NCBI GenBank assembly: GCA_965222225.1
Contig: CBDCTK010000002.1
Span: 2,464,001-2,528,000 of the forward strand
Direction of reading: 5' to 3'
DNA length: 64,000 nt
Source: Candidatus Poribacteria bacterium
GTDB taxonomy: Bacteria; Poribacteria; WGA-4E; JAJDTR01
Shown here: positions 7,888-53,492 of the stretch, in pieces
Numbering within the stretch: the stretch's first letter is position 1
Layout: the number at the start of each line of letters is the position of its first letter
The notes under the pieces: generated by a model
The model's input: only the letters and a program-made list of their open reading frames with translations
Told to the model about the DNA's origin: nothing
The model's database searches: none
Program-made: the position numbers and the translations under genes

Positions 7888-7891
7888 ATCG

Positions 7892-8213: not shown

Positions 8214-8284
8214 GGGTGTTGTATCAAGATTTACTATCGCCTTCCTTATCCAGTCAGTTGATCCCTCGTTATCCACTCGCTTGA
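8214..8284 (+). mobile_element. nested micro-elements (36-bp copy 8226-8261 inside a 35-bp copy)
   Basis: Removing the inner copy rebuilds a 35-bp consensus-like copy. Confidence 0.75.
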
Positions 8285-8333
8285 TTTCTACAATCAGATG
8301 CGTTTCCCCTGATTTTAACGGTTACATCCCTTG

Positions 8334-8362
8334 TTGACGTCATCAAATAGTCATGATACAAT
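8334..8362 (+). promoter_or_regulatory. sigma70-type promoter with extended -10
   Basis: TTGACG-17 bp-TACAAT, with TGn before the -10 box. Confidence 0.55.
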
Positions 8363-8436
8363 GGGCTTTCGTTAATCGACCAACGCCGCCACAGAAGATG
8401 CCACATTTTCATTCTTGCGTCGAAAGGAGCGTTCTC

Positions 8437-9993
8437 ATGCAAACGCTACGAATTCTCTTCGTTTGTTTACTCCTCGGAATTGGACCGGTGACAGTCATTC
8501 TTGCAAGAGAAGTCAAGATTCTCGACATGGACGGGAAGCTAGGGGATACGTTCGGTTACGTCTCCATTAGCGGGGACACCGCCATCGTTGGGGCAAAGGG
8601 TAACGATGACCCAGTTCAGAATGGTGGTGCGGCCCATATCTTCGTACGCAGCAACGGCGAGGACAATTGGGTACACCATAAAAAACTCGCGCCCCCAGAC
8701 GTTAATAATGAGAGCCAGTTCGGAAAGGCTGTTGGCATCAGCGGAAAGTACGCCATCGGGGGGGCTTTGGAGGACGATTTCAAATTCCAGAATGCGGGCT
8801 CGGCTTATATCTATGAACGTACTGGGAAAAGCTGGCCACAGCGGGAAAAACTCACCGCCAGCGATGCTGCTGGAGGGGACGAATTCGGAACGTCTGTCGC
8901 TATCAGCGGGGACACCGCCATCGTTGGGGCACCGCGGCACGATGGAAATAACGGAAAAGATTCAGGGTCGGTCTATGTTTTCGTAAACATCGGCCGGCGT
9001 TGGAAAGAACAAGCAACCTTTACCGCCAGCGATGTAAGCGCAGGTGACCAGCTCGGAACGTCCGTGGCTATTAGCAGGGACACTGTCATCGTCGGGGCTC
9101 CCGGTAAAGCTGATGCCGGAAGGGAGTCAGGCGCGGCCTATATCTTCGTGCGCAACGGGGAAAAGTGGAATCAGCAGGCAAAACTTACCGCCAGCGATAC
9201 GGCTCAGAGGGACAAATTCGGCATCTCCGTCGCCATCAACAGAAACACCGTCATCGTTGGCGCTCTCGGCAAGGCCGACGCCGGGGCTTCTTCAGGCGCG
9301 GCCTACATCTTCGTGCGCAACGGGGAGAAGTGGAATCAGCAGGCGAAACTTACCGCCGCTGACGGGGCACAACTTGATAAGTTCGGCATCTCCGTCTCAA
9401 TTTTCCATAACACCGCCATCGTTGGGGCTAGTGGGGCAGATGATGGTGAAAAAAATGCTGGCGCAGCGTATTCTTTTCAGCGTACTGGCACATCCTGGGA
9501 GCAGAGGGCAAAGATCGTTCCCAGCGACGCGACAGAAAGTGACCAGTTCGGCATTTCCGTCGCAATTGGGGGGGAATTCGTCATCGTCGGGACTACGGGG
9601 CGTGACACATTTAAGGGCGTGGCATATATCTATCGGTCCATAGAAGATTTTCACCCGGTTGATCCATCTGGGCTGACAGTGACCACGTTGGGACAGGTCA
9701 AGCGGACCGCGCTATATCAAAACTTCCCCAATCCGTTCAATCCCGAGACCTGGTTGCCGTATCGCATAGCTTCCGCTGCACAAGTCACTCTTCGCATCTA
9801 CAATGTCCAGGGGCAGTTTGTCCGTGAGTTGGATCCTGGGCTGCAACAACCGGGAGGGTATTTGAGCAGGGAAACCGCTGCCTATTGGGATGGCACAGAC
9901 CAATTCGGAGACGCCGTTTCCAGTGGTGTCTATTTCTACACGCTCCAAGCCAACACGTTCGAAGCGACCCGGAGAATGGTCATTCTGAAATAG
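8437..9993 (+). CDS. secreted FG-GAP repeat protein with C-terminal FlgD/T9SS-like Ig domain
   Basis: AAAGGAG RBS, signal peptide, about seven FGxSVAISGDTAIVGA repeats, NFPNPFNPETWLPY...SGVYFY tail. Confidence 0.85.
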   Translation: MQTLRILFVCLLLGIGPVTVILAREVKILDMDGKLGDTFGYVSISGDTAIVGAKGNDDPVQNGGAAHIFVRSNGEDNWVHHKKLAPPDVNNESQFGKAVGISGKYAIGGALEDDFKFQNAGSAYIYERTGKSWPQREKLTASDAAGGDEFGTSVAISGDTAIVGAPRHDGNNGKDSGSVYVFVNIGRRWKEQATFTASDVSAGDQLGTSVAISRDTVIVGAPGKADAGRESGAAYIFVRNGEKWNQQAKLTASDTAQRDKFGISVAINRNTVIVGALGKADAGASSGAAYIFVRNGEKWNQQAKLTAADGAQLDKFGISVSIFHNTAIVGASGADDGEKNAGAAYSFQRTGTSWEQRAKIVPSDATESDQFGISVAIGGEFVIVGTTGRDTFKGVAYIYRSIEDFHPVDPSGLTVTTLGQVKRTALYQNFPNPFNPETWLPYRIASAAQVTLRIYNVQGQFVRELDPGLQQPGGYLSRETAAYWDGTDQFGDAVSSGVYFYTLQANTFEATRRMVILK

Positions 9994-10091
9994 TATCAAA
10001 TGACCAGATGATGGCAGGAACACTGACCTAGATTGATTCCAGCCATCACAATTGAACTCGGCGAGCGTTTCCACCATCTAGCCAATGTTAA

Positions 10092-10220
10092 GAGCCTGTT
10101 TGAATAATCCAAATTCGTCTCTGAGAGTTGCCATTTTACGGGTAAATACTTTCAAAATAGCGTGACTTTGCCCATAAAATGACAAGAAATGACAGTCCCA
10201 CCTACTTTTCAACCAGGCTC
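10092..10220. mobile_element. IS5-like MITE
   Basis: GAGCCTGTTTGAA / TTCAACCAGGCTC terminal inverted repeats flanked by TAA on both sides. Confidence 0.55.
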
Positions 10221-10224
10221 TAAA

Positions 10225-10505
10225 CTCGACTTTGTACATTTGAGCGAGGCAACAAACGGTGTCAATTAAGCGTTGAAGAAAAATGAAGAAGATTTTAACC
10301 ATCTGATCTTTTTGGTTAACCATTGAAAAAGTCTCCAGCGGTTGCTGATATTATGCAACCTGTCCGGATTTCTATCGCAGTCACTATGGGATCTTCTATC
10401 GCCTTCGCTATCCACTCAGTTGATCGTTCGCTTGATCCCCGCTGCGGGTTTGGTGCTTCACGGCTTTCCGCTCACCCAACCGTTGTACGTTTGTACAAAG
10501 TCGAG
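10225..10505. mobile_element. MITE with a perfect 14-bp terminal inverted repeat
   Basis: CTCGACTTTGTACA ... TGTACAAAGTCGAG; no transposase ORF. Confidence 0.55.
10365..10435 (+). mobile_element. nested micro-elements (36-bp copy 10388-10423 inside a 35-bp copy)
   Basis: The outer copy rebuilds exactly (CTAT|TCGTTCGCTTGA) with no duplication. Confidence 0.85.
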
Positions 10506-10891
10506 CTAAAGATATTCTGACATTTCAACCGATTTTTCCGAGCGGATTGACACGACTAGATTTTTCTTTTTTTATCGGTTTTCCTCAAATCCAATAGCCT
10601 AAACTCGGGACAAGTCATCGTCTTGCCCCAAAAAGGCGCGTACGGGAGTTGGAGAATCTTATCCCCTAAAAAGTGTCAAGGTGTCTCCACGGCTAAGATC
10701 GATGATTTTGAAGAATCCGAGAATTTGGGATGACTCATGTCTAAGTGATAGGCAAATTGTCAATTTATTATTTCACACTATTCTCCCTCATTGGACGGAG
10801 CCACTAAAGCTTAGGACCTTTCATCTGTTTCGTGGTTGAAAGCATTTTAACTGGCTAAGGACGTACAACAAACCTAATATTTGGAAATGTC

Positions 10892-12268
10892 ATGATTAGA
10901 GCGGACGATTCGATTACGCCGGAATCTTTACTTCCGGATCTCGAGCACTTCTGGACGCTCTCCGGCGCGAAGATTAGGGCCATTGAAGCCAGCTGGAAAC
11001 CGGAGGACGGTTCGCCAGTCTTTACGGTCGAGGGACGCTACACGGCCCAGGGATGGACCGAATGGACACAGGGCTTTCAGTACGGCTCGGCCTTCTTGCA
11101 GTACGACGCCACTGGTGACGAGACATTTCTCGAAATCGGCCGGCGCAAAACCGTCGAGGTGATGGCGACACACGTCTCCCATACCGGCGTACACGATCAC
11201 GGCTTCAACAACGTCAGCACCTACGGGAATCTCCTGCGCCTGATGAACGAGGGTCGCATTTCTGAGAACGCATGGGAACGGAGTTTTTACGAACTAGCGA
11301 CCAAGCTTTCCGGCGCCGTGCAGGCGAGCCGCTGGTCCTGTACCGACGACGGCGGCGGTTACATCTATTCCTTCAACGGGCCGCAGTCGCTTTTTTCGGA
11401 CACCATCCGCTCGCTCCGTGTGCTGGCGCTCGCCCACCGACTGAGACACGTGCTGATGAGTGAGAGGGACGAGCCCGTATCCCTGCTCGGGCGTCTGATT
11501 CAGCATGCCTGTGCCACGGCGCGCTACAACGTTTACTACGGGGAAGGTCGAGACATCTATGACGTGCGCGGCCGCGTGGTGCATGAAAGTTTGTTCAACA
11601 CGAACAACGGAAACTATCGTTCCCCGAGTACCCAGCAAGGGTATTCACCGTTTTCCACCTGGACCCGTGGCTTGGCCTGGATCGTTCTGGCGTATCCCGA
11701 GCAGCTTGAATTCCTGGCGGTACTTGATGACAGTGAGCTCGAGCCATTCGGCGGGCGCGAATCCATCGAGGGCATTATGCTCAAAGCCGCAAAGGCGAGT
11801 GCCGATTTCTACATCGAAAATACGCCGACCGACGGCATCCCCTACTGGGATACGGGCGCGCCGGGCCTCGCTGCAATGGGTGATTATCTTCACCGGCCGG
11901 CAGATCCCTTCAACGAACATGAACCCGTGGACAGTTCGGCGGCAGGCATTGCCAGCCAGGGTCTGATTCGCCTGGGCAGCTTGCTTGAGCGGCGCGGCGA
12001 GACCGATGCGGGACTGCGCTACATCCAGGCAGGCCTCACCGTATTGAAAACGCTGCTCGATGACCCCTATTTAAGCCATTCCGAGGCCCACCAGGGGCTC
12101 ATCCTGCACGCGGTCTATCACCGGCCGAACGGTTGGGACCATGTGCCCCAAGGGCACGTCGTGCCTTCGGGCGAAGCCTGTTTGTGGGGAGACTACCATG
12201 CCCGCGAAGCGGCGCTTTACGTTCAACGAATGGCGAAAGGGCTGCCCGATTACAAATTTTTCGGTTGA
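10892..12268 (+). CDS. GH88-like unsaturated glucuronyl hydrolase
   Basis: WTQGFQYG, HDHGF, QQGYS..STWTRGLAW, DSSAAGIA, WGDY. Confidence 0.8.
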   Translation: MIRADDSITPESLLPDLEHFWTLSGAKIRAIEASWKPEDGSPVFTVEGRYTAQGWTEWTQGFQYGSAFLQYDATGDETFLEIGRRKTVEVMATHVSHTGVHDHGFNNVSTYGNLLRLMNEGRISENAWERSFYELATKLSGAVQASRWSCTDDGGGYIYSFNGPQSLFSDTIRSLRVLALAHRLRHVLMSERDEPVSLLGRLIQHACATARYNVYYGEGRDIYDVRGRVVHESLFNTNNGNYRSPSTQQGYSPFSTWTRGLAWIVLAYPEQLEFLAVLDDSELEPFGGRESIEGIMLKAAKASADFYIENTPTDGIPYWDTGAPGLAAMGDYLHRPADPFNEHEPVDSSAAGIASQGLIRLGSLLERRGETDAGLRYIQAGLTVLKTLLDDPYLSHSEAHQGLILHAVYHRPNGWDHVPQGHVVPSGEACLWGDYHAREAALYVQRMAKGLPDYKFFG

Positions 12269-12291
12269 GGGAAATTTGAAAAGGTTTCCAA

Positions 12292-13761
12292 GTGAGCCAA
12301 AAACAGAGCTTTCGGCGTATCGCGTCGTTCAAGACGATTGACAATTTCCGCGAGCACCTTGAGCATCTTGGTCTGGAGTTGCCGACGGATGATGCGATCC
12401 TCACAGGCGATGATTCGCCGCTTTTAAAGCCAATCCGGTTCGGAGAACGCACGATTTGCAACCGTTGGTGCGTCCAGCCTATGGAGGGCTGGGACGGCAC
12501 GACCACTGGCGGCGTGACCGATTCCATGACCCGGCGGTGGCAGCGCTTCGGCATGAGCGGAGCCAAACTCATCTGGGGCGGCGAGGCAATGGCAGTACGG
12601 CCGGATGGCAGCGCGAATCCCAACCAACTCATCATCAACAAGACAAATCAGGCCGGCATCGCCTCGCTCCGGGAAGCGCTCCTGAGCTCGCATCGCAAGC
12701 GCTACGGAAACACCGACAATCTCCTGATCGGTTTCCAACTGACACATTCGGGTCGCTTCTCACGCCCGAAAAACGAGAAAACGCTCAATCCGCCCATTGC
12801 TTACAGGCACCCCCTTTTGGATCAGAAGTTCAGCATCACGAGCGATGCCGCTGTTTTGAGCGATGACGACATCAAACGACTAATCGACGACTATATCGCG
12901 GCGGCCGGCACGGCTTACGGCGCCGGCGCGGATTTTGTGGACATCAAGCATTGCCACGGTTATCTCCTGCACGAATTCCTGGGCGCCCACACGCGGCCGG
13001 GACCTTACGGTGGATCATTTGAAAACCGGACTCGCATTCTCCGCGAGGTTGTTGAGGGAATACGTGCTCAAGTGCCAGAGTTGGAGATTGCCGTCCGCTT
13101 GAGCACATTCGACTTTGTCCCCTTCAAGCCGCATCCCGACCATAGCACCGCGACCAAGCTCGGTCCGGGAATTCCCGAGGCCTATGACGACATCTTACCG
13201 TATCGCTATGCCTTTGGCGTGAATCCCGATGACCCCATCACTTACGACCTCGACGAACCGGAACACTTGCTCGCCCTGATCGAGTCGCTGGGGATACAGT
13301 TGGTCAATCTCTCGGCGGGTAGTCCCTACTATAATCCGCACATCCAGCGGCCGGCGCTTTTTCCCCCGAGCGACGGTTACCAGCCGCCTGAGGATCCACT
13401 GGTCGGAGTCGCACGCCAGATTCATGTGGTCAAGGCGCTCAAGGCCCGATTTCCGAATCTGATCCTGGTGGGTTCGGGCTACACGTATCTGCAGGAATAC
13501 CTCCCGCACGTGTCGCAGGCTGTGGTGCGCGCAGGCTGGGTGGACTCGGTGGGATTGGGGCGCGTGATGCTTTCCTATCCGGAGATCCTGGCCGATGCCA
13601 CCGATACCGGCGCGATTGACAAGCGGCGTATCTGCCGGACTTTTAGTGATTGCACCACGGCGCCGCGCAACGGGCTTCCGAGCGGCTGCTACCCGTTCGA
13701 CGATTACTACAAGTACAACGAAGATGCCAAGCGGCTCAAAGAGATCAAAAAGACGTTTTAG
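12292..13761 (+). CDS. NADH:flavin oxidoreductase (old yellow enzyme family)
   Basis: [32 protein letters not shown]. Confidence 0.9.
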
Positions 13762-13773
13762 CGGAGGTGTAAG

Positions 13774-14556
13774 TTGGCGAACACCCTCAACCGTGTGGCC
13801 CTGATCACCGGCGGAACGCGCGGCATCGGCCTGGGCATTGCCAAAGTTCTGGCTACGGACGGCTACTATCTTGCCTTAAACGGCGTCCGTGATGAAGCCA
13901 GGGTCAAGCCGGTATTGGAGGAACTCGAAGGTCTTGGCGTCAAGGTCGTGTACGTTCAGGGTGATATTGGCGAGACTAACGATCGCGAGACGATTCTAGA
14001 CGGTGTTCAAAAGTGTTTCGGCCGCCTGGACGTCCTGGTCAACAATGCCGGCGTTGCACCGGCTATCCGCGCGGACATTTTGGAGGCCGACGAGTTAAGC
14101 TTCAACGAACTCATGCGCGTCAACTGCGGTGGGCCGTTTTTTCTCACCCAAGCGGCTGCCCGATGGATGATCGAGCAGAAAGAAAAGGACGCCACGTATG
14201 CGGGCGTGATTGTCTTCGTGACGTCGATCTCGGCTGCGGTGGCCTCAATCAACCGCGGCGATTACTGCATGAGCAAAGCAGCGCTCAGCATGGCGGCGCG
14301 TCTTTGGGCCATTCGCCTGGCGAATCACGGCATTCCAGTCTATGAACTGCGCCCGGGAATCATCAAAACGGACATGACCGCCGACGTGAAGGAAAAGTAC
14401 GACCGCCTGATTGCCGAAGGGCTTACATTGGAACCCCGCTGGGGGTGCCCCGAGGACATCGGTCGCGCCGTCGCCGCGCTCGGGCGCGGCGATCTGCCCT
14501 ATGCCACTGGGCAGGTAATCGTACAGGACGGGGGCTTGACGGTGAGTAGATTGTGA
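13774..14556 (+). CDS. short-chain dehydrogenase/reductase (3-ketoacyl-ACP reductase-like)
   Basis: TGGTRGIG, NNAG, YCMSK. Confidence 0.92.
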   Translation: MANTLNRVALITGGTRGIGLGIAKVLATDGYYLALNGVRDEARVKPVLEELEGLGVKVVYVQGDIGETNDRETILDGVQKCFGRLDVLVNNAGVAPAIRADILEADELSFNELMRVNCGGPFFLTQAAARWMIEQKEKDATYAGVIVFVTSISAAVASINRGDYCMSKAALSMAARLWAIRLANHGIPVYELRPGIIKTDMTADVKEKYDRLIAEGLTLEPRWGCPEDIGRAVAALGRGDLPYATGQVIVQDGGLTVSRL

Positions 14557-15152
14557 TTTCTTTGAAATCAATATGAAATCAGTGGATTGCGAAGAAATCA
14601 CAATCTGCCTCGGTTACATGGTGTGAACCTAGCAAAGCTGCAATCAGAATCAAGATTGGAGAACGCAGCCGGCCATGATAGACCTTCTAGCGTGACGCAC
14701 GCATTTTCGAATTGAATGCCGGCAAAGATTATCCATCTGTTTCGCTTTCGATTACAAGATGTTCCCTCATCTCGAGATGAAAGGTGCCATTCGGATTAAG
14801 GTGAGCGTATAGAGCAGGGTTAATGCGCGTAAATCCACTGCCCTGCCACGGAAAAAACGAACACATCCCTCAGAGCGTATGTGGAGAGTTAACTTGGTTC
14901 AACAAGCGATTACACAATGAACCACAATACCATAACTTCTCTTCCGCATTATCCGAAATCGGAAAGTTTGATTCTCAAATGCCACCGATCCTAGAATACT
15001 GGTAGAGTGAATGCGTAGACTGAGAATCACCCATGTTGGATAAACCCATTTACAAATCACAGGTTCTCAGCCGTTTTAACCGGATATAAGCCCCAAGACC
15101 TAGTATGGAAAATTTCGCAATTACATAAGTCTATGACGCGGAAGGTGAGTTT

Positions 15153-17069: not shown

Positions 17070-17371
17070 AGCGTGAGTTCACAAGTTCACGGGCTCATTC
17101 GCGCATCACGTTTCACACAGTAAGGAAATCTAATATTCTGTAAATGCAACTCAGGACCCCCCTACTGGTCTATCAAGTCGATGAGTGTATGCTCTTGTTG
17201 GTTGGCGTTTTACGACGCCACAACGGTTGTCGAAGCGGGTGCGGTAGAAGCCATAGAGCGAATTCCTTTCTTTAGGACAACAGCCGTCTCCTCACCCATT
17301 CTGCAATTCTATAGTCATTGCAATTAATAATTACACATCCTTGCGGGTAATAACATTCTTCTGTACCACAA

Positions 17372-17406
17372 GAGATCTCTATCGCACTCGCTATTCACTC
17401 GCTTGA
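17372..17406 (+). mobile_element. 35-bp micro-element
   Basis: GAGATCTCTATCGCACTCGCTATTCACTCGCTTGA followed by TC. Confidence 0.8.
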
Positions 17407-17732
17407 TCTGTTAGATTGTGGCATGCGCAAACTAACAGTTTGCGCTACGCGGAAGCGTTCGATTCTGTGGGTAATTAGATTCTTCTGTACCACAATTATA
17501 TAACCAATCTATCTATGTGCGAACACTCTCAATTTTTGCATGTCTTAGTGCATATCGTCATCGTTCATTAACATACAATCATAATATGTGTAAATATGAA
17601 TGTAAATGACTAAAAGTTTGGAATCGACACTTTCCTTTTGTGATGTAACGGGTTAGAATCTTCAATGTTCGTCAAAGTTTGATTTCGCCGACATTCATGC
17701 CGAAATTGCCCCTGATAGAGAGGAATCTTTCC

Positions 17733-20042: not shown

Positions 20043-20239
20043 GAATCGGCCACAGATGCACAGAGAAGCAACCACATTCCATTGAATTTAGTGGAAAGCC
20101 GCCGCGACCTCCGAGCAGGTAGTCGCGCAGAGTAATCGCATCTTTTTTCTGGACAGCATAATGGTTAGACGTGCTCTAGCAGCACATATCACTGAGGGGG
20201 AATCACCGTGTTGGGGCTGATTGTTCCTGGGAAACAGAT

Positions 20240-20620
20240 TCCATCCCGGCAAATTGAGATTAAAACCGACACGCGCCTTCGCTTTTTCGTTGAGGTGGTG
20301 TAATCGCCCCATTCAATTGACAGTATTTTATATCAAGCTGCCGTCGAAGACAAAAAAGCGTCCCAACTCGAGATGCTTGTTGCTGACCACGTTTGCGGCT
20401 TCATGGCTGAGGCCACCAAAGAGGACGAACATTTGGTCCAGCCCATGGATATAGAGGGGATCGAAAAGCGCGCTTTCTTGATTCCCATACGGATAAAGCT
20501 GAGGGTTGCAGGTTACAATTCACGCTGTTGCGATGCCTTGAACTACTGATTCGTACGCGAACTTGAGCAGGGCGATCCCTATCGATTCAATAATCAGCCC
20601 ACCAAAGATGATGCTTCATA
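20240..20620 (-). pseudogene. IS4-family transposase remnant
   Basis: Degenerate GLDQM...HLELGRFFVFDGSLI...KAKARVGFNLN with stops; boundaries approximate. Confidence 0.5.
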
Positions 20621-37549: not shown

Positions 37550-37620
37550 TCAACCGACTGAATAAGGAGTAAGATTTCCTATCGCCTTTCCTATTCGGTC
37601 AGTTGATCGATAGAGATCCC
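37550..37620. mobile_element. nested micro-elements (36-bp + copy 37571-37606 inside a 35-bp - copy)
   Basis: Outer 21 + 14 bp halves rebuild GGGATCTCTATCGAACTCCTTATTCAGTCGGTTGA. Confidence 0.85.
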
Positions 37621-37827
37621 CCTGTTTCTATCAGAATTGATTCGCCACAAACACCGATATCTTATGGCGGGTTGGCAGCGGTCAGCTTTTCATAATTCAC
37701 ACAAGACCTCATCGGGTTCTGGCGACTGTTAGAGATGCCGGTCAATTTGAAATCTTTGTCCTATCGTCCCATAGCTTCATGGGCCAATTTTCCGGGAGAC
37801 GGTTATTGAATCACGGCCAATCGTCGT

Positions 37828-40818: not shown

Positions 40819-40903
40819 AGGCAGTCTTAACCATGCGAGGGTTGACTGCTACCACTAAACACTTTCGTAAATGGTAGTATTCCTTTTCTACTTCCACGAA
40901 AAC

Positions 40904-43585: not shown

Positions 43586-43681
43586 GTTTCTCCCTCTTGA
43601 ATGTGCATAGAGGCGGCGGAGCCCGCTCTCACAGAATAAACGAATTTGATTCGAATATGCTGTCAATCCGTGCTCTAACGC

Positions 43682-45559: not shown

Positions 45560-45568
45560 TTTATCTGT

Positions 45569-46678: not shown

Positions 46679-47015
46679 AGCTCCTTTTCTCCATATTGAA
46701 GTGATTTCGCTGAAAGAACATTTAATCACCTGTGTGATTTTTTCAGTTCGGAGAATCTGCTGCCAGAATCCGTCATTGTAAAGGCATGTCCTTGAGCGGA
46801 GGGATGGGCTGGCAAAACGGGGCGGAGATGACACATAGAAGGTGTAGGAACGCAAAAAATAGTACGTCCGACCATTGTGGTACGGTTAATGGAAATGTGA
46901 ATAGCGGTACGTAGGAGAACATCTTGAATTCAAGCGATTTGTCCTCGCCGCAAACGGTGAGAATTGTCAAAATTTTTTGGGGTCTTACCTTAGCAAGGTC
47001 ACGGACGCCCTATTC

Positions 47016-47795
47016 CTACTGCCCCTTCAAGGAAGCCCACGTGGTAGCCAGTTTGCCACTCGGCTCCACCGCCTGTTTTTGGGATTTCATCAGATTGTTT
47101 AGTTCCTTTTCACTCAATGCCCTGCGGTATATCCTTAGTTCATCGATAACACCTTTAAACGAATGGGCACCTATAGCCCAAGGCTGGGAGCCGACAACGA
47201 GGGACACACCTGTTTTAGCAATGGGTTTTCCCCCTGTTTGTAGACGTCTGTTTTCCTCGCCGTTTAGCCAAGCGGTCAGAGCCTTTTCCTTCAGACTATA
47301 TGTCCAGGCTAGATGAACCCACTCACCAGTGGGAACCGCATCCTTTCCTTCGAACGTAAGATAGCGTTTGTCTACATCCTGAAATTCAGGATACATCTGG
47401 TGACCGTTGCCGGATACGCCGCAGACCCAGCCCTCAAGGACGCCGAAACGGCCTTCCGCTTTTCCGACTAACTTGAAAGGATAAGGGGCGTCACCGTTAT
47501 CGAATATCCACGCGGCAGCCGTAAGCTCATCTGGCTCCAGATTATCGGCATGCTGAACGACAATACTACCAAAGGGAGACCTGAGTTCCAAACCACCGTT
47601 AAATTTTCCTCCAACCCACTTGACTGTCCCTTTGAAGGTCCCGTTATTTTTATTGCCGGAACGATCTCGAACTTCATCCCCGGCGGCCTCATCAAAGCTA
47701 AAGTAAAGACTCAAGGATTTATCTTGAGCCGACACGGCGGCGGTTAACATTATACAGGATAACCCGATTGCCGAAGTAAGAGTCAGGATTCTCAT
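47016..47795 (-). CDS. secreted LamG/concanavalin A-like domain protein
   Basis: LYFSFDE, WVHLAWTY, GVIDELRIY; ends AVEPSGKLATTWASLKGQ. Confidence 0.85.
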   Translation of the reverse strand: MRILTLTSAIGLSCIMLTAAVSAQDKSLSLYFSFDEAAGDEVRDRSGNKNNGTFKGTVKWVGGKFNGGLELRSPFGSIVVQHADNLEPDELTAAAWIFDNGDAPYPFKLVGKAEGRFGVLEGWVCGVSGNGHQMYPEFQDVDKRYLTFEGKDAVPTGEWVHLAWTYSLKEKALTAWLNGEENRRLQTGGKPIAKTGVSLVVGSQPWAIGAHSFKGVIDELRIYRRALSEKELNNLMKSQKQAVEPSGKLATTWASLKGQ

Positions 47796-48035
47796 TGTTG
47801 TGTCAGTGTTATCCAGACCGTATTGAGTTCAGGGCTGCGATTTCGCATACCGTGCCTGATTCCCGATTGCGTTCATCAAGAACTATACCACCGATGGTCA
47901 CAAGTATCATTCTGCAAGGAGCTCATCAATGAAACAAGTGAGTGGTGAATGGTTAGTGGGCTTTTTCATCCGCTACTCACCGCTCGACCACTCACTTGTC
48001 ATCAAAAGGCTCCATTTACCGCTGTTTAAGGAATA

Positions 48036-48207
48036 ATACCATTTCTTTAGATTCGCAGTGCATTATAGGCATCAATCAAGTCTCTCCAATGCGGGGCAAG
48101 AGGATCTCTATCGCATTCGCTATTCGCTCATTTGATTCCCGCCTACGGAGAATGTGAAGAATATAACCGATACATCATAATGCACTATTATTCAAGCGAA
48201 ATGGAAT
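48036..48207. mobile_element. MITE family A copy carrying a 35-bp micro-element (48101-48135)
   Basis: ATACCATTTC...GAAATGGAAT ends; the micro-element splits the internal palindrome. Confidence 0.65.
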
Positions 48208-48238
48208 AACCATCAGTATCAAAACACCTGCCAATGGC

Positions 48239-49036
48239 TTACTTAGTCTTCAGGGAAGCCCACACGGTAGCGAGCTTGCCGCTCGGCTCAACGGCAGTCG
48301 GGCTATCCATGAGAGCCATTATCTGATCCTGAGTGAGTGCATCGTCGTAGACTGCAACTTCATCTACAACACCGTGATATCCATGGGCTCCCGGATTCCA
48401 GGGCTGGGCGCCTATAATGAGACCCAACTCACCCGCCGTGTCGAAATTTGTCCTGATCGGCTTTCCCGGGATGTCTCTAGTGTGGTGGACCTCGCCGTTT
48501 ACCCAACCGGTTAGGGTCTTTTCCGCTACGCTATACGTCCAGGCAAGGTGAGCCCACTCACCAGTCGGGATAGCCTCAGGCCCTTGGAACGAAATGGGAT
48601 TGAGATCCGTATCCTGGATTTCAGGGTACATCACGTGACCGTTACCGGATATACCACAGACCCAGCCTTCGAGGACGCCGAAACGACCTTCTGCTTGTCC
48701 TATCAGCTTGAAAGGATAGGGGGCGTCGCCGAGGTCGAAGATCCATGCGGCTGCAGTCAGCCCACCAATCTTTAGGCTATCGGAATCCTCGACCCGGACA
48801 TGGCCTTGTACAGGGTCAGCAAAGAATTCAAGCGCGCCGCCAAAGCCATCTTTTCCGGCAGTCCACTCGGATTCTCCCATGATGGCCCCATTATTTCCGT
48901 TGCCGGAACCATCTGTCACTGTATCCCCTCCACCCTCATCAAAGTTGAAGTAGATGACCAGGTTTTGAGCCGCCGCAGTAGAGGTTAACATCAAACAAGC
49001 TAACCCCGCTATGAGTGTAAAGACTAGACACTTCAT
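48239..49036 (-). CDS. secreted LamG/concanavalin A-like domain protein (paralogue of 47016-47795)
   Basis: Shares AEGRFGVLEGWVCG with its neighbour; ends AVEPSGKLATVWASLKTK. Confidence 0.85.
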   Translation of the reverse strand: MKCLVFTLIAGLACLMLTSTAAAQNLVIYFNFDEGGGDTVTDGSGNGNNGAIMGESEWTAGKDGFGGALEFFADPVQGHVRVEDSDSLKIGGLTAAAWIFDLGDAPYPFKLIGQAEGRFGVLEGWVCGISGNGHVMYPEIQDTDLNPISFQGPEAIPTGEWAHLAWTYSVAEKTLTGWVNGEVHHTRDIPGKPIRTNFDTAGELGLIIGAQPWNPGAHGYHGVVDEVAVYDDALTQDQIMALMDSPTAVEPSGKLATVWASLKTK

Positions 49037-49471
49037 TTGTTGTTCTCCTTGTATAACATGTTTAGTGAACGATGCCATCTTTCGCGAAATAAAATTGTGC
49101 AATGGTTTTTTCATACTAAATCTTGTAGTATACACCCAAATCACCTAATTCGCGGCTAGATTTCAAGGTCGAGTTTGTCTCAGTAGCGGGACATATAAGG
49201 CATTATATACAAGATTTGGTATGTCCTAATTTGACATTATACAATTCCATTACGCGGAAGGTTAGAACAGTGGTGACTTAGACACAGATTGTCAACAGAA
49301 AATAGTGGACATCGGCGTGTAGTTCGTTTTCTGCACGACGCCCGTTGTTAAATGAATTCCTCAAGCGATCTGTTGCAAGAAAACGCTTAAAGCATTGAAC
49401 CTTGTTCTTCCCTGGCTTGTGAGGCCTACTTCCACAATTCTCACCCCCTTGTTTCCAATTCAACAATAAAC

Positions 49472-49518
49472 AAAAAAGGCGTCTCCGAAGAAGCAATCAA
49501 ACTCCTTCAAAGACGCCT
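49472..49518 (-). terminator. intrinsic terminator-like hairpin
   Basis: AAGGCGTCT...AGACGCC stem followed by T6 on the minus strand. Confidence 0.55.
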
Positions 49519-50456
49519 TATTGACGCGGTCACAAAAAATTCCCTTCGGGGCGAAACTCTCCTGCTCCGAACATTCGGTGGTGGTAGAGAGTTTTGGAAT
49601 TTTTCTAAATGAACTAGATTAGGAGACCATAAAGCCATTTTTCCTCCGGAAAGAACTTTAGGTCATTATACAATCAAGAGATTCGGGCGTTATACATCTT
49701 TTCAGATTCCTTGTCGATCAATTAAAATCGCTAAATCAGTCATTTTCGGCTTTTCAGAGCTAGATGTGGAATGCTGTAACGGCTCGGTATCGGAAGAGCT
49801 CAAAGTCGCGAAATCCAGAGGCCTTGCCGGATCGGGACAGGGCGGCGTTTGATGAGGTTGATTTTATTGTTGATGCCTTCGGCGATGCCGCTGGTCGTGC
49901 GGTGACAATAGTAATTGGCGATTTGGTCAATCCAGTTTGCTAGCGTCCAGCGGAAATTCGAACAGAGTCCCGCTTTCTCAGCTACGAAGGACCACTTCCG
50001 CAGCCACTCGATTGCCTTCTCTTTCGTCAAATTGCACTCAACGATATGCTGCAGACAGTCATTGAGTCAATGAGCCGTCTTGACCAGAGGAGACACCTGA
50101 TAAACGTGTTCCCCGATAGATCGGGGGCTGCTTTTCGGTTAGTCGTCCTGGTTCTTTTGCTGATTCTTTAACTGCTTGAGTTCCCGGTTGACCGCCTGCA
50201 TCACATGAAACCGGTCGGCGGTAATCGTCGCCTAGGGCAACAACTCGGCACACACAGTATCATAGGGACTCCACATGTCGATGACGACTTCTTGAATCTG
50301 TGCGCGCTCGAAAGCCGATAGCTGTTCAAGTCGCGCCCTGAGTTTCTCTTGGGTTCTCGCTTTGAGGAAATCGACGACTTCTTTCATGTCCAGATTCGTC
50401 AGAATCAAGGCGAAGTCCCCTTTTCCCTTCCGCAACGCAATTTCATCAATACCCAA

Positions 50457-50528
50457 CGGAGTCTCTATCGATTAACCGACCGAATAGGGAGGGCAATAGA
50501 TAATCCTGCTCGCTATCCGCTCGGTTGA
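50457..50528. mobile_element. nested micro-elements (36-bp - copy 50472-50507 inside a 36-bp + copy)
   Basis: Removing all 72 bp restores ISL3 LKR|LGIDE. Confidence 0.85.
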
Positions 50529-50813
50529 ACGTTTGAGATTGGCAACGGGGGTTAAGGGGATGCGACATCTCGTTTCGTGGAGGGAGATGCTTTCAATCTG
50601 GCCATAAGTCAACCCTTCAGTGCTGGGTACCGCGCTGATGTTGTTCTCTCGAACTTGGTGGAATATCCAATCTTGGTAACGATGGGTGTAATCGCGTCGC
50701 TCGTCGACAAAGCCGAAGGATTCGGAGAAGGCACCTTCGCAGTCTTCACGGAAGAATCGACGGAAATTAGTCAGCTTGCCACAGTGAGAGCATACCGCCG
50801 TCTGAGATGCCGA

Positions 50814-50849
50814 TCAACTGACTGAATAAGGAAGGCGATAGCAAATCCT
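50814..50849 (-). mobile_element. 36-bp micro-element in the ISL3 remnant
   Basis: Reverse complement AGGATTTGCTATCGCCTTCCTTATTCAGTCAGTTGA followed by TC. Confidence 0.8.
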
Positions 50850-51001
50850 GATAGAGATCCCTTCACTGTCCCATGAAATCCTATCTAGACCAACCTCGGC
50901 AGAAACTACCTGGTAGTTGGGAATGTCGATTCGTTGAATTATAGTCATTGTGATTAAGAATTACACATATGGGATTTACTTGGTTCGGTTTGTAGTAGCA
51001 A

Positions 51002-51036
51002 TCAAGGGAGCGAATAGCGACTGCGATAGAGATCCC
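51002..51036 (-). mobile_element. 35-bp micro-element
   Basis: Reverse complement GGGATCTCTATCGCAGTCGCTATTCGCTCCCTTGA. Confidence 0.8.
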
Positions 51037-51116
51037 TTGTGCTACAAAGGTATGACTTGCCCCATCCCTAAAGGTGTTTCAGAGGCTTTGTAACAACCAG
51101 TAATTCTGATAATGCT

Positions 51117-52193
51117 CTATAGTAATTTTGAGAATCCTTCTTTTACTGTTGCCTTAGTCGTAAGGTCAACAAATATGAAGTTTTTGCACAAGGGTTTAAA
51201 AAGTGGAACTTCGTCAATAAATTTTCTGTGCCACTTATCCCCAGATACAAATGTAATACCCTTGTGATACGTATAAAGCAAGTATTCAGCATCTCTAAGG
51301 ACGTTTTGGGGCGCTGCATTTTCGGAATTCTCACGAAGGTAGAGCTGAATTGTGTAAATCCATATCGCTGCTCTGAGTGCGTATGGTGCGAATCTATTGA
51401 TAGGCGGCATATCTTCCTTCAGAAACCTGTTAAAGATCTGGGTATGTTCTTCTGGCGTAAGTATAGGATCGAATAGCCTACCTAGCCGCTGTAATTTATC
51501 ATATGCAGCACTGCGATCGCTCGAATCATGGTTGAGTAGGCTTGCAGCTACTTGATTTGCGTTTTCCAGAGAATCTGCCTTATATGTATCAAAGAGTGTT
51601 TTGATGGATGTTTGGAAGAGTTGTTTGCCTTCCCGCAGAAAGCCTTCGGTTTCTACTTTTTTTAGAATGCGTTCTATCTCTGGATAATACGTTTGGTTTG
51701 CTCTCAGGACCTCTTTTAACCTGTTCACCCACTCTTTTTCAGAAAGATTGTCTGTATTTTTAAACAAACCCAACAATCCTTCTTTCAACGGATTGATTAT
51801 AGAGTCCAGATTTCTATAAAACTCTTCGCTTTCTTTCAGCATCTCTATGGTTTCACTTGAAGCTTCCTTGAACTCCAAAAGTTCTTGTTCCGAGCATTCG
51901 CGAACTGACTTCATTGCGTTTGCACTTCCGATAGGTAAGGGTTTAGCGGATTCCTCTGTAAGCAAGTCCATTTTTGCGTATTCCGACCAATGGGGAATCC
52001 AGATGATATTTTCTAGATTGAGGAGAGCATTATGCCTTTTTAGCCCATGTCTAGCAACTTCAGTGAATAGGATTGATGGACAAAGGATTGTGTATCTGGA
52101 AACTAATGCCTCACGTTGTTCACGATCTAAGGACATCCAAAATGATTTGTCCGGTAGCAAGAGGTTGCTCTGATTGTTCATCGTCATGTGCAT
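51117..52193 (-). CDS. AT-rich hypothetical protein, possibly a PIN-like fold with a large helical insertion
   Basis: N-terminal LLPDKSF and C-terminal RDAEYL...FVSGDK acidic motifs. Confidence 0.5.
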   Translation of the reverse strand: MHMTMNNQSNLLLPDKSFWMSLDREQREALVSRYTILCPSILFTEVARHGLKRHNALLNLENIIWIPHWSEYAKMDLLTEESAKPLPIGSANAMKSVRECSEQELLEFKEASSETIEMLKESEEFYRNLDSIINPLKEGLLGLFKNTDNLSEKEWVNRLKEVLRANQTYYPEIERILKKVETEGFLREGKQLFQTSIKTLFDTYKADSLENANQVAASLLNHDSSDRSAAYDKLQRLGRLFDPILTPEEHTQIFNRFLKEDMPPINRFAPYALRAAIWIYTIQLYLRENSENAAPQNVLRDAEYLLYTYHKGITFVSGDKWHRKFIDEVPLFKPLCKNFIFVDLTTKATVKEGFSKLL

Positions 52194-52214
52194 CTCCGTT
52201 TATTTGACTCCGTT

Positions 52215-52415
52215 CTAATTTGCTTCGGCATCCTCCCCCTCCCTTTTGTCCTGTTCAGCAAACAGTGCATCCGCAATTTCCGTGAGCGCCTCATCTGTTA
52301 TAGGTGAGAAATTCAACAGAGCCACCTGCTTTATGATTTCAGAGGTTATCGCATGTTTTTCAATCCGAGGGAGTTGGTTGAATGCTTCCAATATGTTTTG
52401 TGGGGTTGCGTGCAC
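52215..52415 (-). CDS. small acidic antitoxin-like protein
   Basis: 66 aa, GGAGG RBS, ILEAFNQLP...TDEALTEIADALF. Confidence 0.5.
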   Translation of the reverse strand: MHATPQNILEAFNQLPRIEKHAITSEIIKQVALLNFSPITDEALTEIADALFAEQDKREGEDAEAN

Positions 52416-53038
52416 TGGGACCTCCGTGTAGCAAGAGCGTAAAGTTTATGCGAATTATACACGATGCCTTGACGAAATTTAAGGTTTCTCTACATTCCAA
52501 TAGAGCCATCTAATTTTTGGTTCCCTGTCGGTGGTCTAGTGTGAGTCGCGATTCAGCGACCGCGCCGAAGGTTCAACCGATTTAACTTCACCATTAAGTC
52601 AAATTATGGCTAAGAAGTCGCGACCTAGAGCTCGCTCCTACAGAGGACGGGAAATGAACTGCGATACTACAAACCGCACAACGTAAGCCCCGAACGTATA
52701 ATTCTTAGTTTCAATGACTATAGAAATGTACTGCCATCGGAAATTTAGACCATTATCTTAAACAAGATTATGATACAATTTCCAATCGGATTGAAAGGAG
52801 ATTCCGATGGCTAAACGAAGGAAATTCACGCCCCAATTTAAGGCTGAAATTGCTATTGAAGCACTTACCGGTCAAAGTTCACAAGCGGAACTTTGTCGGC
52901 GGCATAACCTCAGCCAAGAGCAACTATCAAAGTGGAAACACCAACTTCTTGACAACGCGGCGACTCTCTTTGAATCCACTGACAAGCAATCTAACGACCA
53001 TAGGGAACGGATTGCTCAACTGGAGCAACTCGTTGGGA

Positions 53039-53073
53039 TCAAACGAACGAATAGTGAGTGCGATAGAGATCCC
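53039..53073 (-). mobile_element. 35-bp micro-element in IS3 orfA
   Basis: Removing it restores LEQLVGILSLALDIQKKASTLLN-stop. Confidence 0.9.
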
Positions 53074-53457
53074 TATTGAGCTTGGCGTTAGACATCCAAA
53101 AAAAAGCCTCGACTTTGCTCAATTGAATTGGTCTCAAAAACGACAGATGGTTGAAGCTTTGCACACCGATTACCCGGTTCGACACATTTGTGATGTACTC
53201 GGCTTCAATCGGAGCAGTCTGTATTATCAACCGAGGCACGACCCCATTGAACTTGAGCTACGAGACGAAATTGAGAAACTGGCAGCCCGTTATCCGAAAT
53301 ATGGCTATAGGCGTATCACCCAGCTACTGTTGCGAATGGGGTACTCTGTCGGTTATCGACGCGTTGCTCGATTGATGAAAGCAGAGAATCTTTCGGCAGC
53401 CGTAAAACGTACTTGTCAAACTACCAAATCGTTTGACGGCTGCGGTCAATGGGGGAA

Positions 53458-53492
53458 GGGAACTCTATCGCCCTCCTTATTCAGTCGGTTGA
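53458..53492 (+). mobile_element. 35-bp micro-element in IS3 orfB
   Basis: Removing it restores GQWGNRLENLDI and joins ORFs 52850-53593 and 53449-53997. Confidence 0.9.

What the first reader, a model, noticed from the sequence alone, without database searches (positions are those of the whole stretch)
8214..53492. Compensatory covariation shows the micro-element is a strand-specific hairpin with tandem G.A pairs
Seen: of the four variable dinucleotides N1-N4, N2 and N3 are complementary in all 18 copies. Fourteen are Watson-Crick (CT/AG, CC/GG, GC/GC, AC/GT, GT/AC) and four are GC/AC, which is a G.T wobble only on the opposite strand. N1 and N4 are Watson-Crick in 9 copies (CT/AG, CC/GG, AT/AT, AC/GT) and wobble-compatible in 2 more. 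The four complete copies that host another copy all have imperfect N1/N4. The opposite strand therefore folds as 5'-TC-AA-NN-GA-NN-[GRATA loop]-NN-GA-NN-GC-GA-TAG: 2 bp, a near-invariant GA/GA internal loop, 2 bp and a G..A pentaloop. The basal TC/GA pairing can extend into the flanking target bases (..GA|TC against GATAG). Known: tandem sheared G.A pairs are stable in RNA and ssDNA, and IS200/IS605 and RAYT HUH enzymes recognise irregular ssDNA hairpins and choose targets by base pairing. Inference: structure, not sequence, is selected, implying a single-stranded DNA or RNA intermediate read by a protein. Element-target pairing might explain the TC preference.
Basis: partly seen in the sequence, partly recalled or inferred. 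Interest (0 to 1): 0.9.

Follow-up and report, generated by a model that had tools for sequence, protein, structure and literature searches.

The report
Tiny covarying hairpin repeat in Poribacteria
A 36-base DNA snippet that occurs about a thousand times in this sponge-symbiont genome keeps a tiny one-strand hairpin intact by matched base changes and has inserted itself into new sites, making it one of the smallest mobile-looking elements seen in bacteria.

Summary
The motif TCAA-NN-GA-NN-GRATA-NN-GA-NN-GCGATAG plus an ARATCC(C) tail occurs 13 times in the window (0.01 expected by chance) and 1028 times in the genome. It reaches 200-1300 copies per genome in two Candidatus Poribacteria genera and was not found in most others searched.

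The four predicted pairs are the only strongly covarying columns (MI 0.44-1.18 bits). G.T outnumbers A.C 452:63, so the fold is read on one strand only. The signal repeats in 150 distinct copies from other genomes.

It is not a founder effect. 95 pair-compatible stem haplotypes hold 863 of 1028 copies, and each pair switches Watson-Crick state in 26-29 different backgrounds.

The element is mobile. I found paralogous, orthologous and population-level empty sites, and frequent nesting. It sits 3' of a G, makes no target duplication, and replaces 0-4 target bases.

Orientation and pairing quality are independent of neighbouring gene direction. That argues against an in-place mRNA function.

Best reading: a non-autonomous, REP/SDR-like single-strand hairpin micro-element, moved in trans by a structure-reading enzyme, possibly a Y1 HUH transposase. 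The enzyme, the DNA-versus-RNA question and the G.A pairs themselves remain inferred.

The parts
3224..3258 (-). Degenerate full copy (core 3231-3258 plus tail); N1/N4 mismatched
3271..3305 (-). Full copy (core 3278-3305 plus tail), 2 mismatches to the motif
7495..7515 (+). 5' part of a copy truncated or interrupted by the opposite-strand copy at 7516-7551
7516..7551 (-). Full copy (core 7524-7551 plus tail TAAATCCT); N1/N4 mismatched
8226..8261 (-). Full copy, all four pairs Watson-Crick
8262..8284 (-). 5' part of a same-strand host copy (TCAA..N4 GA) directly upstream of copy 8226-8261
10388..10423 (-). Full 36-nt copy inserted into the loop of a host copy
10424..10437 (-). Host copy, 5' part up to the loop G-A
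10365..10387 (-). Host copy, 3' remainder (ATA-GT-GA-CT-GCGATAG plus tail): a clean nested insertion
17372..17406 (-). Full copy, with G.T wobbles in both helices, lying inside a larger repeat
37550..37570 (+). Host copy, 5' part
37571..37606 (-). Full copy inserted in opposite orientation into host 37550-37621, at CTATCG|C on its own strand
37607..37621 (+). Host copy, 3' remainder (T-CGATAG-AGATCCCC); the host G21 is replaced
48101..48135 (-). Full copy between two minus-strand ORFs; RNA-library contigs reach into it
50458..50471 (-). Host copy, 3' remainder (T-CGATAG-AGACTCC)
50472..50507 (+). Full copy (TTAA...GCAATAG: both C1 and G23 changed, keeping that pair) inserted in opposite orientation into host 50458-50528
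50508..50528 (-). Host copy, 5' part
50814..50849 (+). Full copy
51002..51036 (+). Full copy (N1/N4 with a G.T)
53039..53073 (+). Full copy
53458..53492 (-). Full 35-nt copy; one contig of run X17 lacks exactly 53457-53491 (an empty-site allele)

Best explanation
WHAT IT IS. A non-autonomous, about 36-nt mobile micro-element: 5'-(A)TCAA-NN-GA-NN-GRATA-NN-GA-NN-GCGATAG-ARATCC(C)-3'. I class it as REP-like or SDR-like.

HOW IT FOLDS. Its functional form is one single strand folded as a mini-hairpin. Two 2-bp Watson-Crick/wobble helices, which are free to vary, are bracketed by invariant purines. The core reads (A-V-B-G)x2 - RAT - (A-V-B-G)x2. These purines probably form G.A pairs: a tandem GA/GA, a G..A loop closure and an A3..G21.

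HOW IT SPREADS. A protein encoded elsewhere in the genome recognises this shape plus the invariant unpaired bases and copies or moves the element. The most plausible enzyme is a Y1 HUH (IS200/RAYT-type) enzyme acting on single-stranded DNA. Only copies that still fold propagate, so the stems drift by compensatory changes, while G.T is tolerated and A.C is not.

HOW IT INSERTS. New copies land directly 3' of a G (mostly SG), often in loops or at the foot of other hairpins, including other copies. They make no target duplication and lose 0-4 target bases.

SHOWN: repetition, one-strand covariation, mobility, insertion anatomy, and independence from the transcription direction of neighbours.
INFERRED: DNA rather than RNA, the G.A geometry, and the enzyme.
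For: COPY NUMBER AND SPREAD.
- 1028 copies in the genome.
- At up to 1 mismatch: 616-1309 copies per genome in genus g1 (7 of 7 genomes), about 200 in g4 (4 of 4), 3 in g2, and none in 82 of 82 genomes of family f2. The reversed-pattern control found 0 everywhere.
- A covariance model gave the same picture: g1 4/4, g2 1/1, g4 4/4, g3 0/24, g6 0/7, g9 0/10.

COVARIATION.
- MI is 1.18, 0.97, 0.78 and 0.44 bits for the four predicted pairs.
- The next-best column pair scores 0.43 and is a tail-length register effect. All others are 0.26 or below.
- The independent set of 150 distinct copies confirms it.

STRAND ASYMMETRY. G.T against A.C is 452:63 in this genome, 366:44 in the anchor-only set, and 194:36 in other genomes.

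MOBILITY.
- 32 clean and 55 relaxed paralogous filled/empty pairs.
- 138 of 1028 copies sit directly inside or after another copy at four fixed positions: 71, 40, 22 and 5.
- One orthologous empty site, seen in two congeners, inside a 2419-aa ORF.
- One contig of run X17 lacks exactly the 35-nt element at 53457-53491.

NOT AN IN-PLACE mRNA FUNCTION.
- Between co-directional ORFs, 314 copies are sense and 276 antisense.
- All four pairs are intact in 264/314 sense copies and 235/276 antisense copies (p=0.73). G.T:A.C is 146:17 and 126:18 respectively.

ENZYME CANDIDATES.
- Y1_Tnp (PF01797) matches occur in 9/9 g1 and 4/4 g4 genomes, and none in the g2 genome that has only 3 copies.
- In this genome, one intact IS200-type gene and one RAYT fragment are each flanked by copies on both sides within 25-220 nt.
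- RVT_1 was found in only 3/9 g1 and 2/4 g4 genomes.

PUBLISHED PARALLEL. RAYTs recognise only one strand of REP, need stem irregularities, and use a 5' tetranucleotide guide to choose a dinucleotide cleavage site (PMC8266576, passages read).
Against: - No enzyme is tied to the element. The same Y1 types occur in genera without it (g6, g3, g9), and the flanking arrangement is inconsistent across 33 Y1 loci.
- Loss of 1-4 target bases is not what IS200/IS605 chemistry gives.
- The replication-linked orientation bias expected for single-stranded DNA transposition is strong in this genome: the folding strand lies on the C-rich strand in 331 of 459 clusters. It was not reproduced in 231 copies on 8-kb loci of other MAGs (OR 0.98). 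Nor was it reproduced in 20-kb samples of two congeners (OR 0.88, n=56; OR 0.59, n=79, p=0.35). Its direction would also put the folding strand opposite the lagging-strand template.
- Nearest-neighbour energies are marginal. The RNA model gives a mean of -3.3 kcal/mol against -2.7 for shuffles. The DNA model does not predict the hairpin at all.
- An RNA form is not excluded. The RNA model returns exactly the proposed fold for 655 of 1028 copies, and the element is present in RNA-library contigs.
Confidence: 0.55

Rival explanations
1. The hairpin is an RNA motif kept by the host in transcripts, for example as a stabiliser, a processing or termination signal, or a protein-binding site. The covariation would then reflect selection on each copy where it sits.
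For: RNA parameters give the proposed fold as the minimum-energy structure in 655 of 1028 copies. Contigs from four metatranscriptome runs reach into or bridge copies, for example 48109-48204. Most copies are intergenic: 879 of 1025 lie outside my ORF calls.
Against: Copies show no sense preference between co-directional ORFs (314 against 276). Pairing quality and G.T:A.C asymmetry are the same in sense and antisense copies. Copies interrupt one another. Presence/absence polymorphism exists. The element was not found in most genera of the phylum that were searched. The contigs cannot show strand, ends or level of an RNA, and RNA libraries may hold DNA.
Confidence: 0.15
2. The element spreads through an RNA copy and target-primed reverse transcription. 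A target 3' end ...G(A) would prime on the template, giving a fixed left junction, a variable tail and small target deletions.
For: The left junction is fixed after G/GA. The spacer between GCGATAG and TCCC varies from 2 to 4 nt. Between 0 and 4 target bases are lost and there is no target duplication. In the orthologous case, 5-9 nt of the target resemble the element's 5' end (GGGA|TCAAG).
Against: RVT_1 was found at E<=1e-5 in only 3 of 9 g1 and 2 of 4 g4 genomes, and weakly in this genome (27.5 bits). No 5' truncation series is seen. The anchor-only search shows a fixed 17-nt core spacing (844 against 4-15 at other spacings).
Confidence: 0.1
3. There is no structural selection. The apparent covariation comes from a few founder subfamilies that happened to carry complementary dinucleotides.
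For: Some linkage exists between the two helices (Cramer's V 0.36). Many copies sit inside larger repeats that have themselves been duplicated.
Against: There are 240 stem haplotypes, and 95 fully compatible ones hold 863 of 1028 copies. 65 of 90 major helix combinations are occupied. Each pair shows two or more Watson-Crick states in 26-29 different backgrounds. The same signal appears in 150 distinct copies from other genomes, with the slid-partner controls failing. The one-sided G.T excess cannot come from founders alone.
Confidence: 0.02
4. It is a double-stranded DNA binding site, a quasi-palindromic operator or nucleoid-protein site, spread by ordinary recombination.
For: It has palindrome-like symmetry and near-invariant bases between the variable positions.
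Against: A duplex site gives no reason for G.T to be tolerated and A.C not (452:63). It also gives no reason for the two arms to covary while their sequence is free. The insertions are clean and discrete.
Confidence: 0.03

Closest known systems
REP sequences and their RAYT/TnpA_REP enzymes (REPtrons)
   Same: Both are 20-40-nt imperfect hairpin repeats with hundreds of copies per genome, mostly extragenic. Only one strand is the substrate. Stem irregularities are required, conserved unpaired bases flank the stem, and the enzyme is a Y1 HUH supplied in trans (PMC8266576 and PMC3733652, passages read). Y1 genes are present in every element-rich genome searched.
   Different: There is no GTAG or CGTC tag; TCAA lies 5' of the stem and GCGATAG 3'. 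The stems are only 2+2 bp and are hypervariable with covariation, whereas the REP families characterised in PMC8266576 have 5- to 8-bp or longer stems. Self-nesting is frequent. There is no consistent REPtron arrangement. Target bases are replaced.
REPINs (inverted REP doublets, Pseudomonas fluorescens SBW25)
   Same: Both are thought to evolve within a genome as a population of small hairpin repeats moved by a RAYT (PMC3116915, passages read).
   Different: In SBW25, 18% of REPs are singlets, 61% are in doublets, and 93% of doublets are inverted. Here 449 of 1025 copies are singlets and only 34 of 162 doublets are inverted. The single hairpin looks like the unit.
Cyanobacterial small dispersed repeats (SDR1-8; Elhai et al. 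2008, Genome Res 18:1484)
   Same: These are very small (21-27 nt by my recall) dispersed repeats that look mobile. SDR5 inserts precisely between bases 3 and 4 of GCGATCGC, that is after GCG (PMC4390886 passage). Here insertion is likewise after GCG/GGG. Nesting of SDRs is from my recall only.
   Different: [quoted passage not shown] The sequence differs and this element is 35-37 nt long. I could not read the 2008 paper (not held), so I cannot say whether it reports stem covariation or loss of target bases.
IS200/IS605 insertion sequences and their miniature derivatives
   Same: They make no target duplication and insert 3' of a short specific sequence. Their irregular single-stranded DNA hairpins are read by shape, and target choice uses a guide 5' of the hairpin (PMC8266576 passages; PMC6006769 abstract).
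   Different: This element has one hairpin rather than two distinct ends. It has no coding capacity. The target requirement is one or two bases. Target bases are lost. The orientation bias is not reproducible.
Rickettsia palindromic elements (recalled, not looked up)
   Same: These are small palindromic repeats that can sit in frame inside protein-coding genes. Here a copy lies inside a 2419-aa ORF that stays open.
   Different: They are about 100-150 nt long (recalled). Their sequence is unrelated, and no covarying mini-stems are known to me.

Membership tests
REP / RAYT (REPtron) | Short imperfect palindrome, high copy number, mostly extragenic | tested here: met
   1028 copies in the genome; 879 of 1025 chromosomal copies lie outside my ORF calls.
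REP / RAYT (REPtron) | Conserved GTAG or CGTC tetranucleotide at one end of the palindrome | tested here: not met
   The conserved ends are TCAA (5') and GCGATAG (3'). No GTAG or CGTC is present. The tag definition is taken from PMC3733652.
REP / RAYT (REPtron) | A RAYT gene flanked by inverted copies of its own REP | tested here: inconclusive
   Two of the 5 Y1 places in this genome are flanked on both sides by inward-pointing copies. Across 33 Y1 loci of relatives the arrangement is inconsistent, and the same Y1 types occur in genera without the element.
REP / RAYT (REPtron) | Only one strand is the substrate | tested here: met
   This is met only as a sequence signature: G.T:A.C is 452:63 in this genome and 194:36 in others. 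No biochemistry was done.
REP / RAYT (REPtron) | Cleavage at a CT or CA dinucleotide beside the hairpin | not testable with these tools
   Junctions lie after G/GA. The replaced target bases are often CG or CA, but cleavage itself cannot be seen in sequence.
REPIN | Inverted doublets are the predominant, better-conserved unit | tested here: not met
   449 of 1025 copies are singlets. The 162 doublets comprise 128 direct and 34 inverted.
IS200/IS605-derived miniature element | Insertion 3' of a fixed tetra- or pentanucleotide, no target duplication, no loss of target bases | tested here: not met
   No duplication is seen, which fits. However, only G/SG is fixed at the target, and 43 of 55 filled/empty pairs show 1-6 unmatched target bases.
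IS200/IS605-derived miniature element | Orientation bias relative to replication | tested here: inconclusive
   This genome shows 331 of 459 clusters on the C-rich strand. The bias was not reproduced elsewhere.
Cyanobacterial SDR (Elhai 2008) | Family consensus sequences and restriction to heterocyst-forming cyanobacteria | not tested
   The paper is not held. All 80 listed loci of the 99 found in the species-wide scan are Candidatus Poribacteria MAGs.
Any Rfam RNA family | A match to a curated covariance model | tested here: not met
   Only two tRNAs reach gathering score in the window. No match at E<=1 in 50300-53600, which holds five copies.

The most novel reading that the evidence does not exclude
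The 36-nt hairpin is itself the complete replicating unit of a so-far undescribed way of moving DNA. A single-stranded oligonucleotide-sized element would be recognised purely by a purine-zipper mini-hairpin and spliced into a single-strand gap or nick directly after a G, replacing one or two bases. This could happen, for example, at hairpin loops or replication/repair intermediates. Its stems would evolve as a quasispecies under selection for foldability. That would make it the smallest self-defined mobile element with proven structural selection, and a chemistry distinct from IS200/IS605 and from REP/RAYT as now understood.
Probability: 0.3. Interest if true: 0.85.

Novelty: new variant of a known kind. 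Interest (0 to 1): 0.7.

Why it matters
How very short dispersed repeats such as REPs and cyanobacterial SDRs spread is still largely unsolved. This family offers an unusually clean natural experiment.

- About a thousand copies per genome carry eight free positions that record which variants could still propagate. That gives a direct read-out of what the mobilising machinery recognises: the shape plus the invariant purines.
- Nested and polymorphic insertions define the ends of the element to the base.
- The unit is small enough to synthesise and test in vitro with the handful of Y1 enzymes these genomes encode.
- The element also matters in practice. It breaks assemblies of sponge-symbiont genomes, marks two Poribacteria genera, can sit in frame inside genes, and may drive rearrangements.

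Tried and rejected
ORTHOLOGOUS EMPTY SITE AT 17379. The intergenic region is itself a larger repeat with different contents in G005 and G007, so it gave no clean comparison.

REPLICATION BIAS. It is strong in this genome but not reproduced in other MAG loci or in samples of G005 and G001. I treat it as unresolved.

COGNATE ENZYME BY NEIGHBOURHOOD. Y1 loci in this genome and in relatives were scanned. There is some proximity, but no consistent arrangement and no lineage-specific Y1 type.

REVERSE TRANSCRIPTASE CO-OCCURRENCE. It is poor.

THERMODYNAMICS. The energies are only marginal. The parameter sets may not credit sheared G.A pairs, so I do not use this result against the fold.

RNA RUNS. 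Only assembled contigs were available, so no strand, ends or level can be read. Parts of 47000-55000 with little or no cover (for example 49670-50470 and 51272-52600) are not evidence of anything. Several other joints have short sides (20-23 letters) and join one copy to another, as expected for repeats. I used only the 35-nt skip at 53457-53491, and only as weak support because its side is 23 letters.

FLANK-STEM COUPLING. No information is shared between the N positions and the flanks, so a guide-like role of the variable bases is not supported.

DIVERGENT RELATIVES IN OTHER GENERA. The covariance model found none, apart from one marginal hit at E=0.004.

LITERATURE. Six full-text searches found no description of this repeat in Poribacteria.
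- Elhai 2008 is not held, so what I say of it beyond the passages is recalled.
- I did not open any supplementary files. The REP family tables in the additional files of PMC3733652 might list related repeats of the PVC group.
- The rule that sheared tandem G.A prefers a 5'-Y-GA-R-3' context is recalled, not looked up.

TOOLS NOT USED. Structure prediction, fold search, complex prediction, the protein-atlas search, the search for homologous proteins and the search of protein representatives. No protein claim here needed them.

Full report
WHAT IS THERE. Shuffles give 0.01. The window is part of a 5.7-Mb, two-contig genome that holds 1028 copies at up to 2 mismatches: 537 exact, 344 with one mismatch and 147 with two.

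A logo with flanks shows that conservation runs from about -4 to +35. Upstream it reads G-S-G-A. Downstream there is a tail of 2-4 bases followed by (A)TCC(C).

An anchor-only search that fixes nothing between TCAA and GCGATAG finds 844 copies at a spacing of 17, against 4-15 at spacings 14-16 and 18-20. In that set the inner GA dinucleotides, G10 and A14 are 94-98% conserved without having been asked for.

All four NN dinucleotides avoid T at the first base and A at the second. The core can therefore be written (A-V-B-G)x2, RAT, (A-V-B-G)x2. Every invariant G is preceded by a non-A and every invariant A is followed by a non-T. As I recall it, that is the context favoured by sheared G.A pairs.

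WHOSE GENOME. All 80 listed are Candidatus Poribacteria MAGs.

Within the phylum, 121 genomes were searched at up to 1 mismatch. The element has 616-1309 copies in genus g1 (7 of 7; this genome has 881), about 200 in g4 (4 of 4), 3 in g2, and single matches in g6 (1 of 14) and g12. None was found in 82 genomes of family f2, and the reversed-pattern control gave 0.

A covariance model built from 150 copies of other genomes gave the same distribution in 61 genomes and found no divergent relatives elsewhere.

THE COVARIATION. In the window's 13 full copies, N2/N3 is compatible in 13 of 13 (3 with a T.G). N1/N4 is Watson-Crick in 9, wobble in 2 and mismatched in 2 (sequences). The four interrupted hosts in the stated range are also Watson-Crick at N2/N3. 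I rebuilt 14 copies in the stated range, not 18.

Genome-wide, mutual information is 1.18, 0.97, 0.78 and 0.44 bits for pairs 8-16, 5-19, 4-20 and 9-15. The next-highest column pair scores 0.43 and reflects tail length. Everything else is 0.26 or below.

Of 4112 pair cells, 3462 are Watson-Crick, 452 G.T and 63 A.C/C.A. The complementary strand would turn every G.T into A.C, so the fold is read on one strand.

In 150 distinct copies from other genomes, 92.2% of cells pair, against 70.9% in column shuffles (0 of 500 as high). The covariation score is 0.628 against 0.227, and sliding the 3' partner by 1-3 columns gives at most 0.142. Among 428 copies from other genomes, G.T:A.C is 194:36.

FOUNDER EFFECT. 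They do not.
- There are 240 stem haplotypes, and 95 fully compatible ones hold 863 of 1028 copies.
- The ten major helix-1 states and nine major helix-2 states combine in 65 of 90 cells (Cramer's V 0.36).
- Each pair shows two or more different Watson-Crick states in 26-29 distinct backgrounds of the other three pairs.

THE BASAL TC/GA PAIRS. These hardly vary. For C1-G23 the variants are T.G 17 against C.A 4, with one double change (the window copy at 50472). For T0-A24 there is no signal. That part of the model is untested.

IT MOVES.
(i) Nesting. 138 of 1028 copies lie directly after a partial copy at four fixed positions (71, 40, 22 and 5). In the clean cases the host resumes exactly after the insert. 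The window has such a case: host 10424-10437, insert 10388-10423, host remainder 10365-10387.
(ii) Paralogous comparison inside the genome gave 32 clean and 55 relaxed filled/empty pairs. Different stem variants occupy the same site in different members of one repeat family, so these are independent hits on a hot spot.
(iii) One copy lies inside a 2419-aa ORF. Two congeners have the uninterrupted sequence GGGA|TCAAG at that point. This genome carries a net 72 extra bases there: the 36-nt element plus a second complex 36-nt change. The frame stays open.
This is weak support because only 23 letters lie beyond the joint.

ANATOMY OF INSERTION. The insert is 5'-(A)TCAA...GCGATAG-ARATCC(C)-3', 35-37 nt long. 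It always follows a G. The last three flank bases are GGG in 20 and GCG in 9 of 55 pairs. There is no target duplication. The target bases left unmatched are: none in 12 pairs, CG in 8, CGAC in 5, C in 4, GCAT in 3, CGG in 3, CA in 2, and others singly.

In host copies the same rule gives three patterns:
- N4-G|CG|ATAG in the same orientation (71 copies);
- G|A in the loop and after the second GA;
- CTATCG|C in the opposite orientation (window 37571-37606 and 50472-50507).

By eye, many of the target sites lie in loops or at the foot of other hairpin repeats; I did not quantify this. I know of no described transposition chemistry that replaces one or two bases in this way.

RNA OR DNA, HOST OR SELFISH. 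Between co-directional ORFs (my own simple ORF calls), the folding strand is sense in 314 cases and antisense in 276. Divergent and convergent spacers hold 147 and 142 copies.

Sense and antisense copies are equally intact (264/314 against 235/276, p=0.73) and show the same G.T:A.C ratio (146:17 against 126:18). The one-strand signature is therefore not maintained by selection on neighbouring mRNAs. It is stamped in when the element propagates.

Four metatranscriptome runs contain contigs that reach into copies, but contigs cannot show strand, ends or level.

RNA energy parameters return the proposed fold for 655 of 1028 copies. The gain is small: -3.3 kcal/mol against -1.3 for the complement and -2.7 for shuffles. 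DNA parameters do not predict the fold. Neither result settles DNA against RNA.

REPLICATION. In this genome the folding strand lies on the locally C-rich strand in about 72% of loci: clusters 331 of 459, singletons 207 of 303, Fisher p from 1e-10 to 1e-33. The bias holds for skew windows from 2 kb to 200 kb either side of a copy and is not explained by gene direction.

It was not reproduced in 231 copies on 8-kb loci from other MAGs (OR 0.98). Nor was it reproduced in twenty 20-kb samples each of G005 (OR 0.88, n=56) and G001 (OR 0.59, n=79, p=0.35). I leave this open.

ENZYME. This genome has five Y1_Tnp places:
- one intact 157-aa IS200-type gene (NF033573, 65.8 bits);
- one 247-aa RAYT-like gene that scores below the cut-off;
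- one RAYT gene broken by a TAG stop;
- one 73-aa RAYT fragment;
- one weak match.

The IS200-type gene and the fragment are each flanked by inward-pointing copies within 25-220 nt. Similar pictures occur in several congeners.

Y1 matches occur in 9/9 g1 and 4/4 g4 genomes, and none occur in the g2 genome that has 3 copies. They also occur in g6, g3 and g9, which lack the element. The arrangement around 20 further RAYT-like loci is inconsistent.

RVT_1 is found in 3/9 g1 and 2/4 g4 genomes. A Y1 HUH enzyme is therefore the best candidate, by analogy and by presence, but it is not shown.

COMPARISON WITH KNOWN SYSTEMS. The element works like a REP. It is a one-strand irregular hairpin with invariant unpaired bases, probably served in trans by a Y1 enzyme (PMC8266576).

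It fails two defining REP or REPIN features:
- no GTAG/CGTC tag (PMC3733652);
- no predominance of inverted doublets. 449 of 1025 copies are singlets, and 34 of 162 doublets are inverted. In SBW25, 18% are singlets and 93% of doublets are inverted (PMC3116915).

In size and behaviour it resembles the cyanobacterial SDRs. SDR5 inserts after the third base of GCGATCGC (PMC4390886). I could not read the primary paper.

No Rfam family matches. Six literature searches found no description of this repeat in Poribacteria.

VERDICT. The element is best filed as a new variant of the REP/SDR kind of micro-repeat. Three features are unusual:
- 2-bp stems that are free to vary and covary in a thousand copies;
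- a regular purine frame;
- insertion that replaces target bases.

The mobilising enzyme, the nucleic-acid form of the intermediate and the G.A geometry remain to be shown.

Noticed in passing
window 17308-17615: The spacer that holds copy 17372-17406 is itself part of a larger repeat bounded by TTCTTCTGTACCACAA-like direct repeats. It has hundreds of partial matches in congeners, and the orthologous spacers of G005 and G007 have different contents.
   Followed up: partly
own genome, e.g. G000:C2:4027128, 5333072, 4225126, 4858888: At least three other hairpin-type repeat families serve as hot spots for the micro-element: CCCCAGCGGGG + CG + ACAGGTATGTAGCAGCC; the 17-nt palindrome GGTGCGCACTGCGCACC; and GTAGGCGGGG-CATCTTG-CCCCGCC. 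Different stem variants are inserted at the same base in different members.
   Followed up: partly
G000:C2:2917913-2925169 (copy at 2921274): A 2419-aa ORF carries the element plus a second complex 36-nt change, and stays in frame. Over this 1.2-kb stretch this genome and G005 are 99% identical, while five other congeners are 78-83% and G008 70-72%. That may point to recent exchange between species.
   Followed up: partly
own genome, 131 copies inside my ORF calls: Copies lying within called ORFs are antisense to the ORF in 94 cases and sense in 37. By my own reading of the consensus, not by a call, the pyrimidine-rich complement can never form a stop codon in two of its three frames, so it can be read through. 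Most of these ORF calls are short and may be spurious.
   Followed up: no
G000:C2 whole chromosome: GC skew changes sign many times along the chromosome. The cumulative maximum is at 0.82 Mb and the minimum at 2.5 Mb, with further reversals. This suggests rearrangements or assembly joins.
   Followed up: no
G000:C2:3088937-3089269 (L114): A RAYT-type gene is split by one in-frame TAG into 74-aa and 91-aa ORFs. The C-terminal half scores 92.6 bits against NF047646 (cut-off 80).
   Followed up: partly
window 7814-7963: Two adjacent tRNA genes are followed within about 260 nt by a nested pair of copies (8226-8284).
   Followed up: no
G029 (genus g3), several contigs: 17 RVT_1 matches lie in ORFs of up to 1436 aa, many near-identical. 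This is a burst of a reverse-transcriptase-bearing element in a genome that lacks the micro-element.
   Followed up: no
57700-57760 holds a 3' half with GTGATAG followed by a second GCGATAG remnant.
   Followed up: no
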